Part shown: positions 18,895-29,257 of the stretch, one piece after another
Position numbering within the stretch: position 1 is the first letter of the stretch
How the letters are laid out: every line of letters starts with the position of its first letter
Source of the DNA: Nitrospirota bacterium
GTDB taxonomy: Bacteria; Nitrospirota; Nitrospiria; Nitrospirales; Nitrospiraceae
DNA length: 64,000 nt
NCBI GenBank assembly: GCA_963703955.1
Contig: CAVPGK010000001.1
Location: 1-64,000 of the forward strand
Direction of reading: 5' to 3'
Program-made: the position numbers and the translations under genes
The notes under the pieces: generated by a model
Databases searched by the model: none
Told to the model about the DNA's origin: nothing
What the model saw: the letters and a program-made list of their open reading frames with translations, nothing else

Positions 18895-18949
18895 TTGCTC
18901 AGGGTGCATGGGATCGCTTCTCAGCTTTGTACCTCAAGAGAATTGTGTG

Positions 18950-20719
18950 ATGGCGGATTCAAAGCGGAATCCCAGTCGACTCAGCTCTCTCCGTGACTCT
19001 GTCAAAAAAATTACCGAACGCTTGTCAGACGGAGATTCGGATGCCGTGAAAAAAAACGACGAATACAACCGAGAGAATGAAAAGCTCCTCATCCAAATCC
19101 AATCGATGCAGGAAGAAATCCGCCAACTGCATCACTCGCGATACCAGCTTGAGCAGGCCTCCAAGCAGAATGAAAAACTTGCCGCGACCTTGCAGGAAGC
19201 GAAAGCGCAGATCGAGGCGCTTCGGGCGGAAGTGGATAAGCTCACCGCTCCTCCGTCTACGTACGCGATTTTTTCCAGTCTAAACAGCGATGCGACGGCG
19301 AATGTGTATGTCGCCGGGCGCAAGATGAAAGTGAATGTCCACCCCTCGATTAAGGCCAAGGAACTTCGGAAGGGACAGGAGGTCATCCTCAACGAAGCCT
19401 TCAACGTGATTGAGAGTCGAGGATTTGACGGGCAGGGTGAAGTCGTTCGGTTAAAGGATACGCTCGAGGGAAAACGCGCCCTGGTCACCCTGCATTTTGA
19501 CGAAGAAAAGGTGGCTGAGTTGGCGGAGCCGCTGACGCAGCAACGACTCAGCGTCGGAGACCACCTCCTGTATGATCCGCGGTCCGGATATGTCGTTGAG
19601 AAGCTGCCGAAGTCGGAAGCCGAGGAACTGGTCTTGGAGGAAGTTCCCGATGTCGATTATGACCACATCGGCGGTTTAGCCAAAGAGATCGAACAGGTTC
19701 GCGATGCCGTCGAGTTGCCCTTCCTGCATCCCCAGCTCTTTGCCGACCATAGATTGAGCCCGCCCAAGGGGGTGCTGCTGTACGGTCCTCCCGGGTGCGG
19801 GAAAACCTTGATTGCCAAGGCCGTGGCTAATTCCATCGCAAAGAAGCTCGGGCATCTCACCGGGAAAGAGATGCGAAGCTTCTTCCTTCATGTCAAAGGG
19901 CCGGAGCTGCTCAATAAGTATGTGGGGGAGTCTGAGCGCCAGGTCAGGGAGGTGTTCAAGAAGGCCAAGGAGCGCGCGGCCGACGGGTATCCGGTCATTG
20001 TCTTTTTCGATGAGATGGACGCCTTGTTTCGAACGCGCGGATCCGGCATTTCCTCGGATGTGGAATCGACGATCGTCCCTCAGTTCCTCTCGGAAATCGA
20101 CGGCGTCGAGCGGCTTCGCAATGTGATTGTGATTGGAGCCAGCAATCGCCAGGATCTCATCGACCCGGCCGTCCTTCGCGCCGGTCGATTGGACGTCAAA
20201 ATCAAGATTTCTCGGCCCGATATGATCGGGGCGCGGGAAATCTTCTCCAAGTACGTGTTGCCTGACCTGCCGTATGCGGACGAAGAGCTGCAGCGTCATG
20301 GGGGTGACCGCCGCGCATTGGTCGACCGCTTGGTCGGGCTGACCGTGGATGCCATGTACGCGAACAGCGAAGAAAACAAGTTCTTGGAAGTGACGTATGC
20401 TAACGGGGAAAAGGAAATTCTGTACTTCAAGGATTTCGCCAGCGGGGCGTTGATCGAGGGCATCGTGGCGCGGGCCAAGAAGTATTCGGTGAAACGGACA
20501 ATTGCCAATGAAGCAAAGGGATTGAAGAGCGAGGACTTCATTCGGGCGATCCGGGAGGAATTCAAAGAGCACGAGGATCTGCCGAATACGACGAATCCGG
20601 ATGACTGGGCGAAGATCGCCGGCAAGAAGGGCGAAAAAATCGTCCATGTGAGAACGATCACTGCCGGATCGACGGAATCCCGACAGATCGAAACGATCAC
20701 CACCGGTCATTATTTCTGA
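18950..20719 (+). CDS. arc: Proteasome AAA+ ATPase ARC/Mpa
   Basis: Coiled coil + OB domains, GPPGCGKT, KGPELLNKYVGE, FFDEMD, LPNTTNPDDWA, C-terminal GHYF (HbYX). Confidence 0.97.
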   Translation: MADSKRNPSRLSSLRDSVKKITERLSDGDSDAVKKNDEYNRENEKLLIQIQSMQEEIRQLHHSRYQLEQASKQNEKLAATLQEAKAQIEALRAEVDKLTAPPSTYAIFSSLNSDATANVYVAGRKMKVNVHPSIKAKELRKGQEVILNEAFNVIESRGFDGQGEVVRLKDTLEGKRALVTLHFDEEKVAELAEPLTQQRLSVGDHLLYDPRSGYVVEKLPKSEAEELVLEEVPDVDYDHIGGLAKEIEQVRDAVELPFLHPQLFADHRLSPPKGVLLYGPPGCGKTLIAKAVANSIAKKLGHLTGKEMRSFFLHVKGPELLNKYVGESERQVREVFKKAKERAADGYPVIVFFDEMDALFRTRGSGISSDVESTIVPQFLSEIDGVERLRNVIVIGASNRQDLIDPAVLRAGRLDVKIKISRPDMIGAREIFSKYVLPDLPYADEELQRHGGDRRALVDRLVGLTVDAMYANSEENKFLEVTYANGEKEILYFKDFASGALIEGIVARAKKYSVKRTIANEAKGLKSEDFIRAIREEFKEHEDLPNTTNPDDWAKIAGKKGEKIVHVRTITAGSTESRQIETITTGHYF

Positions 20720-20862
20720 CGACGGAAAGAAGCTGGAGGACACGATTAACTGGTGGCTTCTCACCACGACTCCCCTCGAAGAGCGTGTTACGAGGAATAG
20801 CGAGCAGTACGTGAGTTCGCGTTGCCGAGTCGGTGAGGCAGCCGTTTACGACGCGGTAATCC

Positions 20863-20894
20863 GAACGCCGCTGGAGGTCTTTTTCAGCAGCCTG
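20863..20894 (-). mobile_element. Terminal fragment of the MITE family
   Basis: gaacgccgctggaggtctttttcagcagcctg matches the end of the copy at 29223-29254. Confidence 0.65.
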
Positions 20895-20908
20895 ATGGTG
20901 GACGTCCA

Positions 20909-22390
20909 GTGATTACACAACGCGTTCTTGGTACGGAAACGGAGTTTGGTATCGCCGCCCGCGATACGGAAGCCACCGATCCGGTTTCCAATTCCCTCCA
21001 ACTGATCGGACATTGCCCTTCACTGCCGTCTCCTCAAGCCATTTGGGACTACGAGAATGAAAACCCGCTGCTCGACATCCGCGGCTTTGAAGCAGAAGGC
21101 GAGCGTGAGCGTCCAGGCCCGGACTACAATCGACTGTTGAACAAGGTGCTCTCCAACGGCGGCCGTCTCTACGTCGACGGGGCCCATCCTGAATATTCTA
21201 CGCCAGAGTGCGCCAACCCCCGAGAATTGGTGGCCTTCGAACGCGCCGGCGAGCGCATTCTTGCCGAATGTTTGCGGGCCATGAATCGGGCGCGAGGCGG
21301 GGAAAAGTTCTCTCTTTACAAGAATAATACCGACGGGAAGGGCAACAGCTACGGCTACCATGAGAATTATTTGCTGAGCCGTTCCGTTCCATTCGACCGG
21401 ATCGTGCGTGTCCTGACCCCTTTCTTGGTGACCCGCCAGATCTACGCCGGGTCGGGTAAAGTCGGGGCCGAAAATCAGACCACCCCAGCGGCCTACCAGA
21501 TCTCCCAGCGCGCCGACTTTTTTGAATGCCTGGTGGATCTGAACACGATGGTCAAACGACCGATCATCAATACTCGCGATGAACCCCATGCCGATCCTGC
21601 AAAATACCGACGGTTCCATGTCATCGTGGGTGATGCCAATATGACCGAGCTTTCAACCTATCTCAAGCTGGGCGCCACCGCGATCATCTTGGACCTCCTC
21701 GAAGACGGGGTGGAATTACCGAACGTCGAATTGGAAGATCCGGTCAGAGCGATCAAGGATGTGTCTCGAGACCTGGACGTCAACAAAACGCTGAAACTAG
21801 CCGATGGTAACATCACATCCGCGATCGGTATCCAACGGGTCTATTTGAAAGCCGCGATGGACTTCTTTGCCTGCCATGAGTTGAACCAGATCACCAAGGA
21901 TATTCTCGTGCGCTGGGAGGAGGTCTTGGACAAGCTCGAGCGGGACCCCATGTTATTGGTTCGTGACCTCGATTGGGTGGCGAAACGGCATATGATCTGC
22001 TCCTACATGGAGCGGAAAGGGTGTGGGTGGGACGATCCTCGTATATCCTTGTTGGACCTTCAGTATCACGATGTTCGGCCGGAGAAGGGACTGTATTACA
22101 CCTTGGAACGGAGCAATTTGGTCGATCGGTTGCTGCAGGACACCGAAATTGGCAAGGCCGAGCATACGGCTCCACTGGGCACTCGGGCGTATTTTAGAGG
22201 GAATTGTCTCAAGAAATTTGGACGGAACATGTACGGGGCCAGTTGGACGTCAGTGCTGTTCGACGTGGGAAACACCACGATCAAGAAGATCCCCTTGATG
22301 GATCCTCTACGCGGCACCGAATCTCTGACGCGTGAGCTGTTGGAGGCATCCGACTCGGCGGAATCATTGCTTGCCAAATTGACCGCCTAA
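20909..22390 (+). CDS. dop: Depupylase/deamidase Dop
   Basis: GTETEFGI, WDYENENPL, NGGRLYVDGAHPEYSTPEC, KNNTDGKGNSYGYHENY, RDEPHAD. Confidence 0.93.
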   Translation: MITQRVLGTETEFGIAARDTEATDPVSNSLQLIGHCPSLPSPQAIWDYENENPLLDIRGFEAEGERERPGPDYNRLLNKVLSNGGRLYVDGAHPEYSTPECANPRELVAFERAGERILAECLRAMNRARGGEKFSLYKNNTDGKGNSYGYHENYLLSRSVPFDRIVRVLTPFLVTRQIYAGSGKVGAENQTTPAAYQISQRADFFECLVDLNTMVKRPIINTRDEPHADPAKYRRFHVIVGDANMTELSTYLKLGATAIILDLLEDGVELPNVELEDPVRAIKDVSRDLDVNKTLKLADGNITSAIGIQRVYLKAAMDFFACHELNQITKDILVRWEEVLDKLERDPMLLVRDLDWVAKRHMICSYMERKGCGWDDPRISLLDLQYHDVRPEKGLYYTLERSNLVDRLLQDTEIGKAEHTAPLGTRAYFRGNCLKKFGRNMYGASWTSVLFDVGNTTIKKIPLMDPLRGTESLTRELLEASDSAESLLAKLTA

Positions 22391-22482
22391 ACGTTACCCG
22401 CCGCTGCTGACCTCTGGGGCCGAGAGCCTGGGACGGTGCGCATCTGCCTCACCGGCGGAGCCAAGACCAAGGGAGAGACGAC

Positions 22483-23313
22483 GTGTCGACCTTTTCAGTG
22501 TTTCCTGATGATGGTGGATCGAGTTTCTTCGACTATTTGGTACGCCAACGCCCTGATCTGATGCCATCGGCCCGCGAGTGGCTGCCGCGCTCGACATCCC
22601 AAGGAGGCGAGGAACGACGCTGGTCTCAGATACCGACGCCCCCGCACGGTACCACCGTGCTGGCGATCAAGTATCAAGGGGGAGTGGTCATCAGCGGCGA
22701 TCGGCGAGCGACCGAAGGCTTTCAGATCGCCGGCCGTGAAATGGAAAAGGTCTTCAAAATCGATGCTTATTCTGCGATGGCGATAGCCGGAACGGCGGGA
22801 CCCGCGATCGAGATGGCGAAGCTCTTTCAGACGGAACTCGAGCACTACGAAAAGCTGGAAGGTATCCAGCTGTCATGCGAAGGCAAGGCCAACAAACTGG
22901 GCCAGATGGTGAAAGCCAACCTACCGATGGTCTTTCAAGGGCTGATTGTGATTCCCATCTTCGTCGGGTACGATCACCGGCGGGGGGAGGGGCGAATCTT
23001 TAAGTACGACGTCACGGGAGGCCGCTATGAGGAATCCGAATATCATTCCATTGGCTCTGGTGGAAAGGATGCGCGCAATACCATTCGGGAGCACTACCGG
23101 AAACACCTGTCGGAGGAGGAGGCGGTAAAACTCGCTTTGCTCGCACTCTATAACGCAGCCGAAGAGGACGTAGGAACCGGAGGGCCCGACCTGATCCGGG
23201 GCATTTATCCGACCGTAAAGATCGTCACCGAATCAGGGATTGCGAATGTCGATGACCCGAGAATCAAGGCGGTCTATACGGCTCTAATCGAAACCCGCGG
23301 GAAGGAGATCTAG
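22483..23313 (+). CDS. prcB: 20S proteasome beta subunit with propeptide
   Basis: SSFFDYL..QRPDL propeptide, PHG|TT catalytic Thr, GDRRAT, GSGG. Confidence 0.96.
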   Translation: MSTFSVFPDDGGSSFFDYLVRQRPDLMPSAREWLPRSTSQGGEERRWSQIPTPPHGTTVLAIKYQGGVVISGDRRATEGFQIAGREMEKVFKIDAYSAMAIAGTAGPAIEMAKLFQTELEHYEKLEGIQLSCEGKANKLGQMVKANLPMVFQGLIVIPIFVGYDHRRGEGRIFKYDVTGGRYEESEYHSIGSGGKDARNTIREHYRKHLSEEEAVKLALLALYNAAEEDVGTGGPDLIRGIYPTVKIVTESGIANVDDPRIKAVYTALIETRGKEI

Positions 23314-23315
23314 TC

Positions 23316-23999
23316 ATGCCGTTGCCCTACTACGTCTCTCCGGAACAGATGATGCAGGATAAGGCAGAGTATGCCAAGAAGGGCATCTCCAAGGGGAGGT
23401 CGATCATCTCCATGGAGTATCAGGACGGCGTCCTGCTCGTCGCCGATAATCCCAGCGCATCCCTGTACAAGATTTCTGAAATCTACGATAACATCGCATT
23501 TTCGGGCGCGGGCAAATACAGCGAGTTTGAAAACCTTCGGAAGGCGGGCATTCGGCACGCGGACTTGAAAGGGTTCATGTACAGCAGAGAAGATGTCACC
23601 GCTCGTTCCTTGGCTAACGGCTATTCCCAGAGCGTCGGCACGATTTTCAGCCAGGAACTCAAACCGTTGGAAGTCGAGATTCTCGTGGTCGAAGTTGGGG
23701 AGCTAGGTCGGCCGAACGAAATGTATCGTATTTCGTTCGATGGCAGTATCTTCGATGAACGCGGCTTCGCGGCGATTGGCGGACGGGCCGAGGCGCTGCA
23801 GGTCTATTTGAAGGAGCGGTACAAGAGCGAGACGCCGACGTTGAAGGCGGCGCTGGCTCTCTGCATGGGAGCCCTGGAGAATGTGACGAACCAGAAGCTC
23901 CCCCTAGAGGGACTTGAAGTCGCCGCTCTGGATCGGACGCGTCCAGGCCGAAAATTCCGTCGCATCGCGGTCTCAGAGGCTCGCCAACTCCTCACCTAG
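23316..23999 (+). CDS. prcA: 20S proteasome alpha subunit
   Basis: PYYVSPEQMMQDKAEYA.KGI..GRS, KISEIYD, LEVA.LDR. Confidence 0.96.
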   Translation: MPLPYYVSPEQMMQDKAEYAKKGISKGRSIISMEYQDGVLLVADNPSASLYKISEIYDNIAFSGAGKYSEFENLRKAGIRHADLKGFMYSREDVTARSLANGYSQSVGTIFSQELKPLEVEILVVEVGELGRPNEMYRISFDGSIFDERGFAAIGGRAEALQVYLKERYKSETPTLKAALALCMGALENVTNQKLPLEGLEVAALDRTRPGRKFRRIAVSEARQLLT

Positions 24000-24133
24000 C
24001 CCCGCCGTTCCACGACATCTCCATAAGAGAGCCGCTTCCGTTGCGATCGGACCCGCGCCGCTAGGTGTCAGGTTGAAGAAAGCGGGAGGCCGGTGTATGC
24101 TGAAAGCAATTGCGGTTGGAATTCCGTTTTTCC

Positions 24134-25510
24134 ATGAAACACCGTATTTTCGGCCTCGAGAACGAGTACGGGCTGATTTTCTCGCCCAACGGGCGAATTT
24201 ACCTTCCGATGGAGAAGGTGCTTGGCTACATCTTCGAAGGCCTCATTCCCAATAGCTGGCCATCCAACGCCTTCCTGGTCAATGGAGCGAGATTCTACCA
24301 GGACACCGGCTGTCATCCTGAGTATTCCACCCCAGAATGCGACAATATTCTTGACCTTGTGATCCACGACAAGGCGGGCGAACGCCTGCTGGAGGCGTGT
24401 TTGCCGGCTGCCGAAGAACGTCTGCGGGAAGAAGGCCTCTCGGGCGAGATCTATATTTTTAAGAACAATACCGATTCTTTGGGGAACACCTATGGGTGCC
24501 ATGAAAACTTTCTCATGCGGCGGGATGTGGACTTTTGGAAGGTCACGGAGCAACTCATCCCGTTTTTCGTGACCCGGCAGATCTATTCAGGTTCCGGCAA
24601 GGTGCTGAAAGTCTCGGGCAAGCCGCAGTTTTTCATTTCGCAACGGGCGCAGCATATCCATGAAAAGACATCCTCCTCGACTACGTCTTCGCGGAGCATC
24701 ATCAATACCAGGGACGAGCCGCACGCGGATGCCGAAAGATACCGCCGGCTTCACATCATCGTCGGCGACTCAAATATGTCCGAGTATGCCACCTATCTGA
24801 AAGTCGGGGTGGCTGCTCTGGTCTTGTCGATGATTGAAGATGGGTTCACGCTGACGGGCATGGAATTGGAAGACCCAGTCAAGGCCATTCGCGAGGTGTC
24901 GCGGGATCCGACCCTGAAGAAAAAAGTGAAGCTAGATGACGGACGGCAATTGAGCGCGATCGAAATCCAGCGGACCTATTTGGACCGAGCCCATGACTAC
25001 CTCTGTACCCAATCCCACGATCCGGTCCTGGATGACGTGCTGGACAAGTGGTCGAGCATCCTGGACCGTCTGGAAGAGGACCCCATGCAGGTGGTCCGGG
25101 AGGTCGATTGGGTGAGCAAGAAGCTCCTCATCCAGTCCTTCGTCGACAAGAAAGGGTGTGGCTGGGACGATCCTAGAATTTTCTTGATGGATCTCCAGTA
25201 CCACGATGTGAAGCGTACCCGAGGGCTTTATTATCTGATGGAGTCCAAGGGTATGATCGAAAGAATCGTGGATGAAGAGGCGGTCCAGCGCGCCATGTCG
25301 GTTCCGCCGCAAACCACCAGGGCTAAAGTCCGCGGCGACTTCATCCGCTTTGCGCGGGCGAAAAACCGCTCCTACACCGTGGACTGGACGTACCTGAAAC
25401 TCAACGGGTACTGGGAAGAGACGATCCTGTGCATGGACCCATTCAGCGCGGTGAATCGTCGGGTGGAAGAGTTGGTTGCACAGGTTTCAGGCCCGCGCTT
25501 GTATCGATAA
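24134..25510 (+). CDS. pafA: Pup-protein ligase
   Basis: RIFGLENEYG, NGARFYQDTGCHPEY, KNNTDSLGNTYGCHENF, TSSSTTSSRSIINTRDEPHAD, VDW...DPF. Confidence 0.95.
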   Translation: MKHRIFGLENEYGLIFSPNGRIYLPMEKVLGYIFEGLIPNSWPSNAFLVNGARFYQDTGCHPEYSTPECDNILDLVIHDKAGERLLEACLPAAEERLREEGLSGEIYIFKNNTDSLGNTYGCHENFLMRRDVDFWKVTEQLIPFFVTRQIYSGSGKVLKVSGKPQFFISQRAQHIHEKTSSSTTSSRSIINTRDEPHADAERYRRLHIIVGDSNMSEYATYLKVGVAALVLSMIEDGFTLTGMELEDPVKAIREVSRDPTLKKKVKLDDGRQLSAIEIQRTYLDRAHDYLCTQSHDPVLDDVLDKWSSILDRLEEDPMQVVREVDWVSKKLLIQSFVDKKGCGWDDPRIFLMDLQYHDVKRTRGLYYLMESKGMIERIVDEEAVQRAMSVPPQTTRAKVRGDFIRFARAKNRSYTVDWTYLKLNGYWEETILCMDPFSAVNRRVEELVAQVSGPRLYR

Positions 25511-25514
25511 GGTT

Positions 25515-25638
25515 CAGGTACTGAAAAAGGCTCCCAACTTTGTTCTCGGGTCGAAAAAATCTTCAACGTACCCCAGAGGGTACGCCTCCGGTTTTTTCTC
25601 CCCTGCGGCCGCGTTGGATGGCCTTTTTGAGTATCCTG
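25515..25638 (+). mobile_element. MITE-like repeat, copy 2
   Basis: CAGGTACTGAAAAAGG ... CCTTTTTGAGTATCCTG; colinear with copy 1. Confidence 0.8.
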
Positions 25639-26663: not shown

Positions 26664-27248
26664 ATGGGTACCGGGTCGGGTCTGATCGTCGGATTGACTC
26701 GCGTGCGTGCGTGCGGCGCAATCGCCGGACTCCTCATCCTCTCAGCAATCACCGCTTGTACAGCAATTCCAAGCAAGTTCGTCAAGCAGGCGGAGCCAGG
26801 CGTCACGCTGACCCAACTCACGAAGCACCCCGAGGCGTACACAGGCAAGGTCGTGATCTTAGGTGGAGCCATTATCGAGAAGCGGGAAGATGAGGGGCAG
26901 ATCTGGCTGCTGGTCAGGAACCGCCCCCTCGACGCGGATTACGTCCCGCATATCGCCGCCTCCTTGGGAGGTTCCGAAGACGGAAACTATTGGGTCGTCG
27001 TCACGCAGCAGGGCCTGCCCAAGACCTATGCGAGCTGGGCGCGGCTGACTGTGGTCGGCCGGGTCACCGATCAACGAGCGGCGGATCCCGGGACGATCGT
27101 CGAATCGGGACCGGTCCTCATGGCGATGTATCTCCACGGCTGGGACGCCGGGATGGGTGGCTATGGCCTACGCGAGAGCAGTTGGGAGGCAACCTACCCT
27201 CCCAACACGATTCTCTCGGCGCCGAAACCGGTGCTGAAGAAGGAATAA
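26664..27248 (+). CDS. Slp family outer-membrane lipoprotein
   Basis: Lipobox ITAC, PEAYTGKVVILGG.II, RPLD...P, LTVVGRV. Confidence 0.75.
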   Translation: MGTGSGLIVGLTRVRACGAIAGLLILSAITACTAIPSKFVKQAEPGVTLTQLTKHPEAYTGKVVILGGAIIEKREDEGQIWLLVRNRPLDADYVPHIAASLGGSEDGNYWVVVTQQGLPKTYASWARLTVVGRVTDQRAADPGTIVESGPVLMAMYLHGWDAGMGGYGLRESSWEATYPPNTILSAPKPVLKKE

Positions 27249-27476
27249 GAACCGCTTGGCGGCGCGATTGTCTCCCTTCCTCCCAGTCAATGGTGATTGC
27301 AAGACCCCGTATCGTATCTTCTGACTCCGAGTGGTCGACCGGGATAGACTGCGGGCTGATAGCTGGATAGACTGCAGGATTCGCTGTATATCCCGGCGGA
27401 CGGAACAGGACGACAAATTGAATAAGTATTGGATTTCGAAGTAGACTTTTGCTTGAGCAGATCGCTTAAGCTGCCG

Positions 27477-27520
27477 TGCTATGCTGCGCGGATAGTCTGC
27501 AGCAGACTTAACAGTTATGC
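27477..27520 (+). promoter_or_regulatory. attI-like integration site with an upstream extended -10 promoter
   Basis: TGcTATGCT (27477-27485), palindrome AGTCTGC-a-GCAGACT (27494-27508), core GTTATGC (27514-27520). Confidence 0.5.
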
Positions 27521-29062
27521 GTCAAAAATTGCCGCCCATCCCTATGAGCACGAGGCGAATACTCACCATCGGTCTTGAGGTAGCCTCGCCTGATACACAG
27601 CATGCGAGTTTTCGCTCAAAGACATCGCTTCTCGATTGGGACATCGTACTTTTCAAGCCGCGGATCGACGAGTTCTTCAGCTACGGCGACTATTACCAGG
27701 GGAAGGAAAGCCTTAGCGATAGTGCCTCATTCCAACTTAAAGAGTGCTGTGAACACTGGCGCCGGGAGATCAAGCAGGCTGTTGAAGCGGGGAAGACGGT
27801 AGTCGTCTTCTGCCGGAACTTCAGGAGGTCTTCGTCGACACGGGCCAGCGGTCCTACTCCGGTACCGGTCGCAACCAAAAGACCACACGTCACGTCGCGG
27901 AGTATGACAACTATCAGGCCATACCAGCCGCTCTATCACCGGTGACGGCCACCGGCACTACCATGAAACTGTCTGCGCGTGGCGCAGAGGTGCTTGCTCC
28001 GTATTGGTCCGAGTTTGAGAGCGACTCGCAGTACAAAGTTCTACTCGCGGACCCCAAGGTCCCCGCATGCATCGTCACTCGCACGGGTGAGAAACGGTAG
28101 GCGCACTCTACCGGAGCAAGTGATCGGCGGGCACGCTGCTTCTTCTCCCTGACATCGTAGTTCTACCCTGACAACTTCATCAAACAACGCGGAGAGAAAG
28201 CGAGCTGGACACCGCCGCCGAGCAGTTCGCGGGGCGAATGCTGGCAACGGCGGTCGCGCTAGATAAAGCGCTTCGTAGTGCTGGCGAGATCACCCCGGAA
28301 CCGCCATGGGCTACCGAGTCACAGTTTGCACTCGGACCGGAGAGTGCGCTACGCGTCCAGCTACTCGAAGCCGAGCGGAAGGTCGAGGAGGCGCAGAAGC
28401 ACAAGGAGCAGCTTGGAGAACAACTTCGGTCCGCGGGAGCGTATCGAGCCCTCCTTTTCGAGAAGGGCAAGCCACTGGAGAACGCAATAATTGAGGCGCT
28501 CCGATTGCTGGGCTTCACTGCTGCCCCGTTCAAGGAGTCAGACTCGGAGTTCGATGTCGTCTTTGAGTCCGATGAGGGTCGCCTCATTGGTGAGGCCGAA
28601 GGGAAGGATAGCAAAGCTGTCAAAGTAGACAAGCTGCGGCAACTGGCAATGAACATTCATGAGGACCTTCAGCGCGAGAGCGTTACGAAGCCCGCGAAGG
28701 CAGTGTTGTTCGGTAATGGCTTTCGTCTTCAGGCCCTGAACGAACGGAGCGACCCGTTCACCGAGAAGTGCCTCAGCGCGGCAGCAACTTCCTCCACTGC
28801 ACTGGTTTTTACTCCTGACCTCTTCTGGCCAGTGCAATACCTTGTGAGCCACGCTGACGCTGAGTATGCGCGAGCCTGCCGCCAAGCGATGCTTTCGTCT
28901 ACAGGCCGGGTCACGTTCCCGCCACCACCCGCGATGGAACGGCCCGACGAAGAAACGCTAGTCGAGAAAGCGCGGTGACGCATAACCCCTCGCTCAACCG
29001 GACCGCCAACGGCGTGATCCCTTTCAGGGCACCACGCCGTTGGTGGCCGGTTACCTCGAACG
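27515..29062 (+). mobile_element. Integron gene cassette (~1.55 kb), single, no intI in the window
   Basis: Starts G|TTATGC and ends in an attC whose R'' GCATAAC is the exact reverse complement of that core site. Confidence 0.85.
27544..28978 (+). pseudogene. Cassette ORF (~480 aa if repaired): unknown N-terminal domain, coiled coil, C-terminal restriction-endonuclease-like domain; several frameshifts at 27810-28220
   Basis: LENAIIEALRLLGF...SEFDVVF...IGEAEGK...DKLRQL resembles an Mrr-like PD-(D/E)XK motif; protein-like sequence continues across ORFs 27517-27945 and 28238-28978. Confidence 0.65.
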
Positions 29063-29068
29063 TTAGAC
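28980..29068 (+). other. attC recombination site (89 bp)
   Basis: R'' GCATAAC, L'' GCTCAACC, stem ccggAccgccaacggcgtg / cacgccgttggtggccgg, L' GGTTACC, R' GTTAGAC; begins 1 bp after the ORF stop. Confidence 0.9.
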
Positions 29069-29155
29069 TGCTGTGCAACTGTCCGCGGAGTAATGGCTTC
29101 CACCCCTTATTACAACCTCCCACCCCAAGCGCGCCAAAACGCGGTCTTTCGAACT

Positions 29156-29254
29156 AAGGCCGCAGGGGAGTCAAAACCGGAGGCGTAGCCTCTGGGCTAC
29201 GTTGAGGATTTTGACGACCCGAGAACGCCGCTGGGGGCCTTTTTCAGCATCCTG
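29156..29254 (-). mobile_element. MITE-like repeat, copy 3 (inverted, one end replaced by a REP-like unit)
   Basis: Reverse complement caggatgctgaaaaaggcccccagcggcgttctcgggtcgtcaaaatcctcaacgtagcccagaggctacgcctccggttttgactcccctgcggcc aligns to copies 1 and 2. Confidence 0.8.
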
Positions 29255-29257
29255 CGC

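What the first reader, a model, noticed from the sequence alone, without database searches (positions are those of the whole stretch)
27515..29068. Lone integron cassette with a textbook attC and no integrase, inside a housekeeping region
Seen: GTTATGC at 27514, one ORF filling the interval, then 1 bp after its stop an 89-bp imperfect palindrome GCATAAC-ccctc-GCTCAACC...GGTTACC-tcgaac-GTTAGAC with unpaired bases at the positions expected for attC extrahelical bases. The R'' box is the exact reverse complement of the upstream core site, as expected if a circular cassette recombined in at G|TT. Known: this is IntI-type cassette architecture. No tyrosine recombinase ORF or second attC was seen in the window. 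Inference: a trans-acting integrase uses this site as a one-cassette satellite platform.
Basis: partly seen in the sequence, partly recalled or inferred. Interest (0 to 1): 0.75.

Follow-up and report, generated by a model that had tools for sequence, protein, structure and literature searches.

The report
Orphan integron dock holding one cassette
This is a real integron gene cassette sitting in a real integron docking site whose neighbouring integrase gene is gone; such orphan docks are common in this bacterial family and likely still swap cassettes now and then when an integrase turns up from elsewhere.

Summary
The attC (28980-29068) is real: fold z = -5, and it is the only window hit (E 8e-12) of a covariance model built without it. 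Its R'' box is the exact complement of GTTATGC at 27514. 'One ORF' is wrong: a 478-aa gene (predicted glutamine-amidotransferase-like domain plus PD-(D/E)xK nuclease) is broken by four indels and a stop, possibly assembly errors. In two relatives it directly follows an intact, co-oriented integron integrase; 88 of 90 platform hits have only fragments or none. So this is an orphan dock of an inverted-integrase integron, not a lone attG insertion. Two pairs of matching integrase-less docks carry different cassettes, supporting exchange in trans for the class. No integrase was found in this 82%-complete genome, so present activity here is unproven. Unexplained: the 30 bases after attC are an inverted copy of this dock's own attI arm. 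The scan noted such docks before, in this genome and in other Nitrospira.

The parts
27320..27514 (+). attI platform: the spacer that follows the intI stop codon in complete co-oriented integrons. TGA at 27322-27324 aligns with that stop; no coding remnant of intI is detectable. Contains repeated GGATAG(A/T)CTGC motifs (27342, 27365, 27490), a hairpin (27365-27393) and conserved promoter-like hexamers (27418, 27442, 27477).
27499..27520 (+). attI core and crossover G|TT (G at 27514); the bases after G belong to the cassette
   Evidence: column conservation 0.92 against a mean of 0.80 in 24 copies; sequence diverges right after G|TTRRRY
27515..29062 (+). integrated gene cassette, 1548 bp
   Evidence: R'' is the exact reverse complement of the upstream core; the predicted circle pairs all 7 R-box bases
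27544..28978 (+). cassette gene of a 478-aa unnamed family, broken by four indels and one stop at about 27810-28215; predicted class-I glutamine-amidotransferase-like domain, coiled coil and PD-(D/E)xK nuclease domain
28980..29068 (+). attC site
29062..29092 (-). imperfect inverted copy of this dock's own attI arm (27484-27512), 24 of 29 identical; unexplained
   Evidence: the junction is also seen in one run contig (X1 record 1)
29108..29255 (.). REP-like dispersed repeat of this family; downstream boundary, not part of the integron
26664..27248 (+). left flank: Slp-family lipoprotein gene
   Evidence: Pfam PF03843
29258..30760 (-). right flank: HD-domain phosphohydrolase gene
   Evidence: Pfam PF01966; matched in 130 of 151 family genomes

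Best explanation
This is the attI docking region of an integron whose integrase gene pointed towards its cassettes and is now absent here, holding one cassette that IntI most likely inserted at G|TT and that a visiting or distant IntI likely can still exchange occasionally. Shown: the attC, the cassette boundaries, the homology of 27320-27514 to the intI-attI spacer of complete integrons, the absence of intI here, and different cassettes at matching integrase-less docks in relatives. Inferred: insertion by attI x attC recombination; loss of intI by deletion; transcription of the promoterless cassette gene from a Pc inside the platform; exchange in trans; an anti-phage nuclease role for the intact gene family.
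For: The platform is found in 46 of 151 family genomes and always ends at a conserved core followed by variable sequence. G340:C2 has an intact 406-aa IntI (TIGR02249 455.7 bits, cut-off 265) ending where the platform begins; G346:C54 has a 317-aa IntI (457.8 bits), the platform and 6 co-oriented attC hits. Of 90 platform hits, 2 have a complete or near-complete intI, 20 have fragments of varied length and 68 have none by HMM. One locus seems to show deletion in place: G083:C442 keeps a 5'-truncated intI, while G044:C2 and G069:C97 share part of that upstream flank and have none. Matching integrase-less docks differ in cargo. G023:C1 has 1 attC hit and G067:C2 has 5; they share 1390 bp upstream (86%) and the same terminal flank. 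G044:C2 and G069:C97 share flanks at 87-94% and hold unrelated single inserts, best E 0.67. G023, G067 and G044 each have an IntI over the cut-off elsewhere; G340 holds a complete integron and a second, orphan copy. IntI over cut-off occurs in 10 of 46 platform genomes against 7 of 105 others, Fisher p = 0.011, kin not independent. The same gene family is the first cassette behind the same platform at another locus (L141), with the same core but a different attC. In 14 relatives Slp lies next to the HD gene, 12 of them within about 100 bp, against about 2 kb here.
Against: No IntI in this assembly: best TIGR02249 score 62 bits, only a 23-residue C-terminal remnant on C16; the assembly is 82% complete. 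36 of 46 platform genomes have no IntI over the cut-off. No empty or differently loaded version of this exact dock was found (no same-genus genome; 0 hits). The cassette gene is broken, which fits a frozen relic if the lesions are real. The G023/G067 dock's upstream flank also occurs twice in G102, so it is probably on a mobile element and may have been reloaded in other hosts. No promoter passes the consensus scan. IntI of other lineages acting on this attI was not tested.
Confidence: 0.6

Rival explanations
1. Frozen relic: a complete co-oriented integron once sat between slp and the HD gene, captured this cassette with its own IntI, then lost intI and has been inert since.
For: No IntI in the genome; broken cassette gene; other docks in this genome are cut by IS110 or degraded; 20 of 90 platform hits carry intI fragments of varied length, as decay would give. 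Stable arrays after intI loss are described in Xanthomonas (10.1101/2025.06.18.660453, passages).
Against: The attI core and attC are intact while intI is gone without trace. Matching integrase-less docks in relatives differ in cargo. The gene breaks may be assembly errors: 6 of 64 conserved genes, including what appear from their sequence to be ATP synthase beta and UvrB, also look broken in this assembly.
Confidence: 0.27
2. Mobile mini-integron: the platform, with or without a cassette, moves as an integrase-less unit through IntI recombination at secondary or inverted sites, and arrived here without intI ever being adjacent.
For: Several copies per genome. The G000 C10 and C21 copies are sisters (100/100; end branches 0.022 and 0.041) that begin at the same point just before the intI stop in unrelated flanks. 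G145:C4 has three platform-plus-gene units in tandem. The same M23/Slp-HD gap holds a platform in G013 (same direction, other cassettes) and in G063 and G081 (opposite direction), none sister to this copy in the free tree. The inverted attI arm after attC could be a recombination scar.
Against: 5' ends vary widely, from most of intI to none. No shared junction or target duplication was seen at 27249-27320. The AU test does not reject a G000+G013 clade (p = 0.14). The inverted arm was not seen after any of 84 other attC sites.
Confidence: 0.1
3. Lone cassette inserted at a chance genomic GWT site (attG) by a passing IntI, the SALIN route of Loot et al.
For: Single attC, no integrase, housekeeping neighbourhood; the route is documented (10.1101/2022.09.11.507474, passages).
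Against: The insertion point is the end of a 200-bp element homologous to the intI-attI spacer of complete integrons. In the 12 relatives with an Slp-HD gap of about 100 bp or less there is no room for it.
Confidence: 0.03

Closest known systems
SALIN / CALIN (single or clustered attC lacking integrase; Loot et al. 10.1101/2022.09.11.507474; Cury et al. PMC4889954; Neron et al. PMC9024848)
   Same: attC-bounded cassette with no intI nearby. IntegronFinder-type rules would call it a SALIN. Two CALINs are reported in Ca. Nitrospira inopinata. Mobilisation of CALIN cassettes by outside IntI is already proposed.
   Different: It keeps a recognisable attI and promoter-like platform, which those tools do not detect outside class 1-3 integrons. 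It is therefore a potential insertion dock, not an attG insertion.
Inverted-integrase (co-oriented, 'reverse') chromosomal integrons, as in Treponema (Wu et al. PMC3607928) and archaeal integrons with attI downstream of intI (Ghaly et al. PMC9668308)
   Same: attI lies 3' of intI and cassettes read the same way. 10 of 13 extended full-intI loci from this family have co-oriented downstream attC hits, 2 are classical and 1 has none. G340 and G346 carry this very platform.
   Different: intI is absent here. In this lineage the integrase-less form is the rule (88 of 90 hits) and occurs at several loci per genome.
PD-(D/E)xK restriction-like nucleases (FokI cleavage domain, N.BspD6I), for the cassette protein
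   Same: The predicted C-terminal domain of an intact homologue aligns to FokI at Z 11.7, rmsd 3.1, 143 residues; D338, E351, E353 and K355 are invariant in 50 homologues.
   Different: It is fused to a glutamine-amidotransferase-like fold (Z up to 9.3, near the common range) through a coiled coil. There is no significant Pfam, NCBIfam, PADLOC or PDB sequence match. Activity is untested.

Membership tests
Integron gene cassette | attC with R''/L''/L'/R' boxes, 5- and 6-bp spacers, bottom-strand hairpin with extrahelical bases | tested here: met
   R'' GCATAAC departs from RYYYAAC (recalled consensus) at one position, a variant also seen in relatives' sites
Integron gene cassette | Covariance-model hit for attC | tested here: met
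   own model from 25 sites of other genomes, E 8.4e-12, sole hit in the window; IntegronFinder's own model was not available
Integron gene cassette | R'' complementary to the upstream core site; gene co-oriented and ending next to attC | tested here: met
   7 of 7 complementary; stop 1 bp before R''; gene broken internally
Integron gene cassette | Excision or integration by IntI | not testable with these tools
   needs a recombination assay
Complete integron (incl. inverted-integrase type) | Adjacent intI gene | tested here: not met
Complete integron (incl. inverted-integrase type) | attI site | tested here: met
   by homology to the intI-adjacent site of G340 and G346; function not assayed
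Complete integron (incl. inverted-integrase type) | Pc promoter | tested here: inconclusive
   conserved hexamers (0.76-0.92 against a mean of 0.80) but no hit in the sigma-70 scan
SALIN (Loot et al.) | Single attC and no integrase nearby | tested here: met
SALIN (Loot et al.) | No other att integration site nearby (insertion at attG) | tested here: not met
   an attI platform is directly upstream; definition
CALIN | At least two attC sites | tested here: not met
   one hit in the window with filters off; definition
PD-(D/E)xK nuclease (cassette protein) | Restriction-endonuclease fold with conserved acidic and lysine residues | tested here: met
   predicted model of homologue P0001, pLDDT 85; FokI Z 11.7
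PD-(D/E)xK nuclease (cassette protein) | Nuclease or anti-phage activity | not testable with these tools
   no PADLOC match below E 0.025

The most novel reading that the evidence does not exclude
In this family the promoter-attI module has become an integrase-less mobile mini-integron that seeds many expression docks around the chromosome, all served by one occasional IntI; the inverted attI arm after this attC is the scar of how such a unit is joined in, leaving a symmetric empty site usable in both directions.
Probability: 0.13. Interest if true: 0.72.

Novelty: new variant of a known kind. Interest (0 to 1): 0.42.

Why it matters
Single attC sites without an integrase are usually read as false positives, decayed leftovers or random attG insertions, because attI cannot be detected outside clinical integrons. 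Here a family-specific attI profile shows that many of them in this family, which appears to be the nitrifying Nitrospiraceae, are full docking sites. That makes an open question, whether integrase-less arrays stay active in trans, testable with a matched IntI (G340) and attI pair, and with matching docks that differ in cargo. This single locus, with one possibly dead gene, matters little by itself.

Tried and rejected
Rfam and tRNA scans of the window found nothing. My first attC heuristic was too strict and missed most sites; it was rewritten and then replaced by the covariance model. Exact-pattern scans of metagenomes for the downstream junction and for the attI gave 0 hits, as did a viral scan, so no empty site was found. 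Sequencing runs: no RNA holder listed; four DNA runs held small shares and none covered 27810-28215, so the gene lesions could not be checked. I first read the bases after attC as a truncated second cassette with an RBS and ATG; the supposed ORF runs into a REP-like repeat from about 29108 and the first 45 bases have no match in 150 other genomes, so this is unsupported. The platform HMM rebuilt without this copy does not detect the inverted arm; it is short and resembles only the local copy. A single-sequence fold of the C-terminal domain failed (pLDDT 38). Foldseek gave nothing at E <= 0.001. The Atlas did not answer. The G346 row in alignment A3 was taken on the wrong strand and is ignored. 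My model finds an attC directly after the homologous gene in only 3 of 35 distant loci, and before it in one more; others show only core-like remnants by eye, so the family is not always a cassette. Paper searches listed no paper on orphan attI docks in Nitrospira; 'orphan attI', 'isolated attI' and 'attI site lacking' had 0 occurrences in the 10 papers listed. The library is partial and no supplements were read.

Full report
Observation. The bottom strand folds at -26.2 kcal/mol, z -4.99, better than all 200 shuffles. In the predicted circle all seven R-box bases pair. I aligned 25 attC sites from other genomes. Their stem shows compensatory changes in 49 cells against 14 in shuffles, though the sites were picked for complementarity. 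A covariance model built from them hits this site alone in 64 kb, E 8.4e-12, and 8 dispersed sites in the genome, 6 of them strongly. One public DNA contig matches 28894-29105 exactly and so bridges the attC's right junction; it may come from the same campaign as the assembly.

The ORF claim fails. The interval holds pieces in three frames. Homologues are mostly about 478 aa, up to 89% identical over the C-terminal piece (993 hits among 7994 candidates scored). Against them the window gene has four indels and one stop within about 410 bp. Whether these are real is open: 6 of 64 conserved genes also look broken in this assembly, and no run covered the stretch. A model of an intact homologue (pLDDT 85) has an N-terminal glutamine-amidotransferase-like fold, a coiled coil and a C-terminal domain matching the FokI nuclease (Z 11.7, rmsd 3.1, 143 residues) with invariant D338, E351, E353 and K355. 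No family library names it. A sensor-nuclease defence role is my inference; integron cassettes encoding phage defence are reported (10.1101/2024.07.02.601686 and 10.1101/2024.07.02.601719, search listing only).

A search of relatives showed matches to 27317-27524 that stop at the G|TT. This ~200-bp element occurs in 46 of 151 family genomes. A relative's copy finds it in 45 of 159 family genomes but only 2 of 141 from the other families of the order. Copies share a core ending in G|TTRRRY and then diverge completely. Several are preceded directly by the last codons of an integron integrase on the same strand. G340:C2 has an intact 406-aa IntI whose stop aligns with TGA at 27322-27324, then the platform. 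G346:C54 has a 317-aa IntI, the platform and six attC hits. So the element is the intI-attI spacer of an inverted-integrase integron, the layout known from Treponema (PMC3607928, abstract and passages; PMC4889954, passages) and from archaea (PMC9668308, passages). Co-oriented cassettes are the majority layout in this family: 10 of 13 extended full-intI loci. Of 90 platform hits examined, 2 have a complete or near-complete intI, 20 have fragments and 68 have none by HMM; one of the 68 had only 55 bp of upstream sequence, and some are partial copies.

The locus. I examined 40 genomes around the HD gene, 27 with flanks fetched for the purpose (some cut short by contig ends) and 13 with about 1.5 kb or less. 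None has the cassette gene there. 14 have slp next to the HD gene, 12 within about 100 bp. Three have a platform in the gap: G013 in the same direction with a different array (2 attC hits), G063 and G081 in the opposite direction. These are not sisters of the window's copy in the free tree, but a G000+G013 clade is not rejected (p-AU 0.14). Repeated arrival at a neutral gap between convergent genes is likely, not proven.

Is there exchange in trans? For the class, probably. G023:C1 and G067:C2 share 1390 bp upstream, an intI-less dock and the terminal flank, yet hold 1 and at least 5 attC sites with no shared insert. G044:C2 and G069:C97 share both flanks and hold unrelated single inserts. Precise gain or loss of cassettes needs IntI (established knowledge). 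G023, G067 and G044 encode one elsewhere, and G340 has a complete integron plus an orphan copy. The G023/G067 flank recurs twice in G102, so that dock probably rides a mobile element. IntI over cut-off is in 10 of 46 platform genomes against 7 of 105 others (p 0.011, kin not independent); most platform genomes lack it. The same gene family is the first cassette of the same platform at another locus (L141), with the same core but another attC body. For this genome there is no IntI: the best hits are other tyrosine recombinases and a 23-residue remnant on C16, in an assembly 82% complete. Its other docks lie on C10, C21, C26 and C11, some cut by IS110 at the crossover. Present activity here is therefore unproven.

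Unexplained. Bases 29062-29092 are an inverted copy of the dock's own attI arm (27484-27512), 24 of 29 identical. None of 5000 shuffles with the core held fixed reached the score of 13. The best of 48 first-cassette starts scored 5.5. The same bases scored at most 8 against 63 other platform arms, and 84 other attC flanks scored at most 7.5 against any arm. The comparison was made after I noticed the similarity. The empty site would be a ~60-bp imperfect palindrome centred on the crossover. A local inverted duplication or an attC recombination with an inverted attI could explain it; I cannot choose between them.

Verdict. This is a real cassette in a real attI dock with no integrase. It works like an integron platform, but it is not a complete integron, not a CALIN (one attC) and not a pure attG SALIN (10.1101/2022.09.11.507474, passages). 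CALINs in Nitrospira are on record (PMC9024848, passages) and trans mobilisation has been proposed. Seven paper searches listed nothing on family-wide orphan attI docks; supplements were not read and may list this type of locus. Earlier notes of this scan describe such docks in this genome and in other Nitrospira; I had reached the reading before seeing them. New variant of a known kind, interest 0.42.

Noticed in passing
G000:C10:187305-188367 and G000:C26:14504-15702; a related copy at C6:157967-159155: An IS110-like element (family name recalled from its N-terminal sequence; 99.8% identical copies on C10 and C26) sits at the attI crossover on C10, with GTT core sites and attC-bounded cassettes directly behind its end on both C10 and C26. 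Earlier scan notes report the same.
   Followed up: partly
G000:C16:93786-93540: A 23-residue intI C-terminal remnant followed by an attI of a different lineage (like that of G081's complete integrons) and a first gene: a second kind of orphan dock in this genome.
   Followed up: partly
L185:3235-6147 (G145:C4): Three platform-plus-gene units in tandem at about 0.9-kb spacing, only the last with a clear attC.
   Followed up: partly
L146, L155 (archaeal Methanotrichaceae records), L134, L137, L144: The cassette gene family has core-site-like boundaries in archaea and Proteobacteria, suggesting cross-domain spread as a cassette.
   Followed up: partly
window 18908-25510: A Pup-proteasome-type gene cluster (ARC-like ATPase, Dop/PafA-like genes, proteasome beta and alpha subunits), named from recall of the sequences; conserved next to this locus in relatives.
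   Followed up: no
window 29108-29255 and 25521-25610: REP-like dispersed repeats of this family, in opposite orientations on either side of the M23-slp-cassette block.
   Followed up: no
G000 whole assembly (C12:1895, C12:171927, C17:268006, C2:11740, C16:87669, C16:90385): 6 of 64 conserved genes show frameshifts or stops, so broken genes in this assembly need read-level checking.
   Followed up: partly
L073, L080, L082 (sequence after intI): In another IntI lineage the sequence just after the intI stop is an inverted repeat of the attI arm about 120 bp downstream; repeated motifs bound the spacer in several lineages and may be accessory IntI sites.
   Followed up: no
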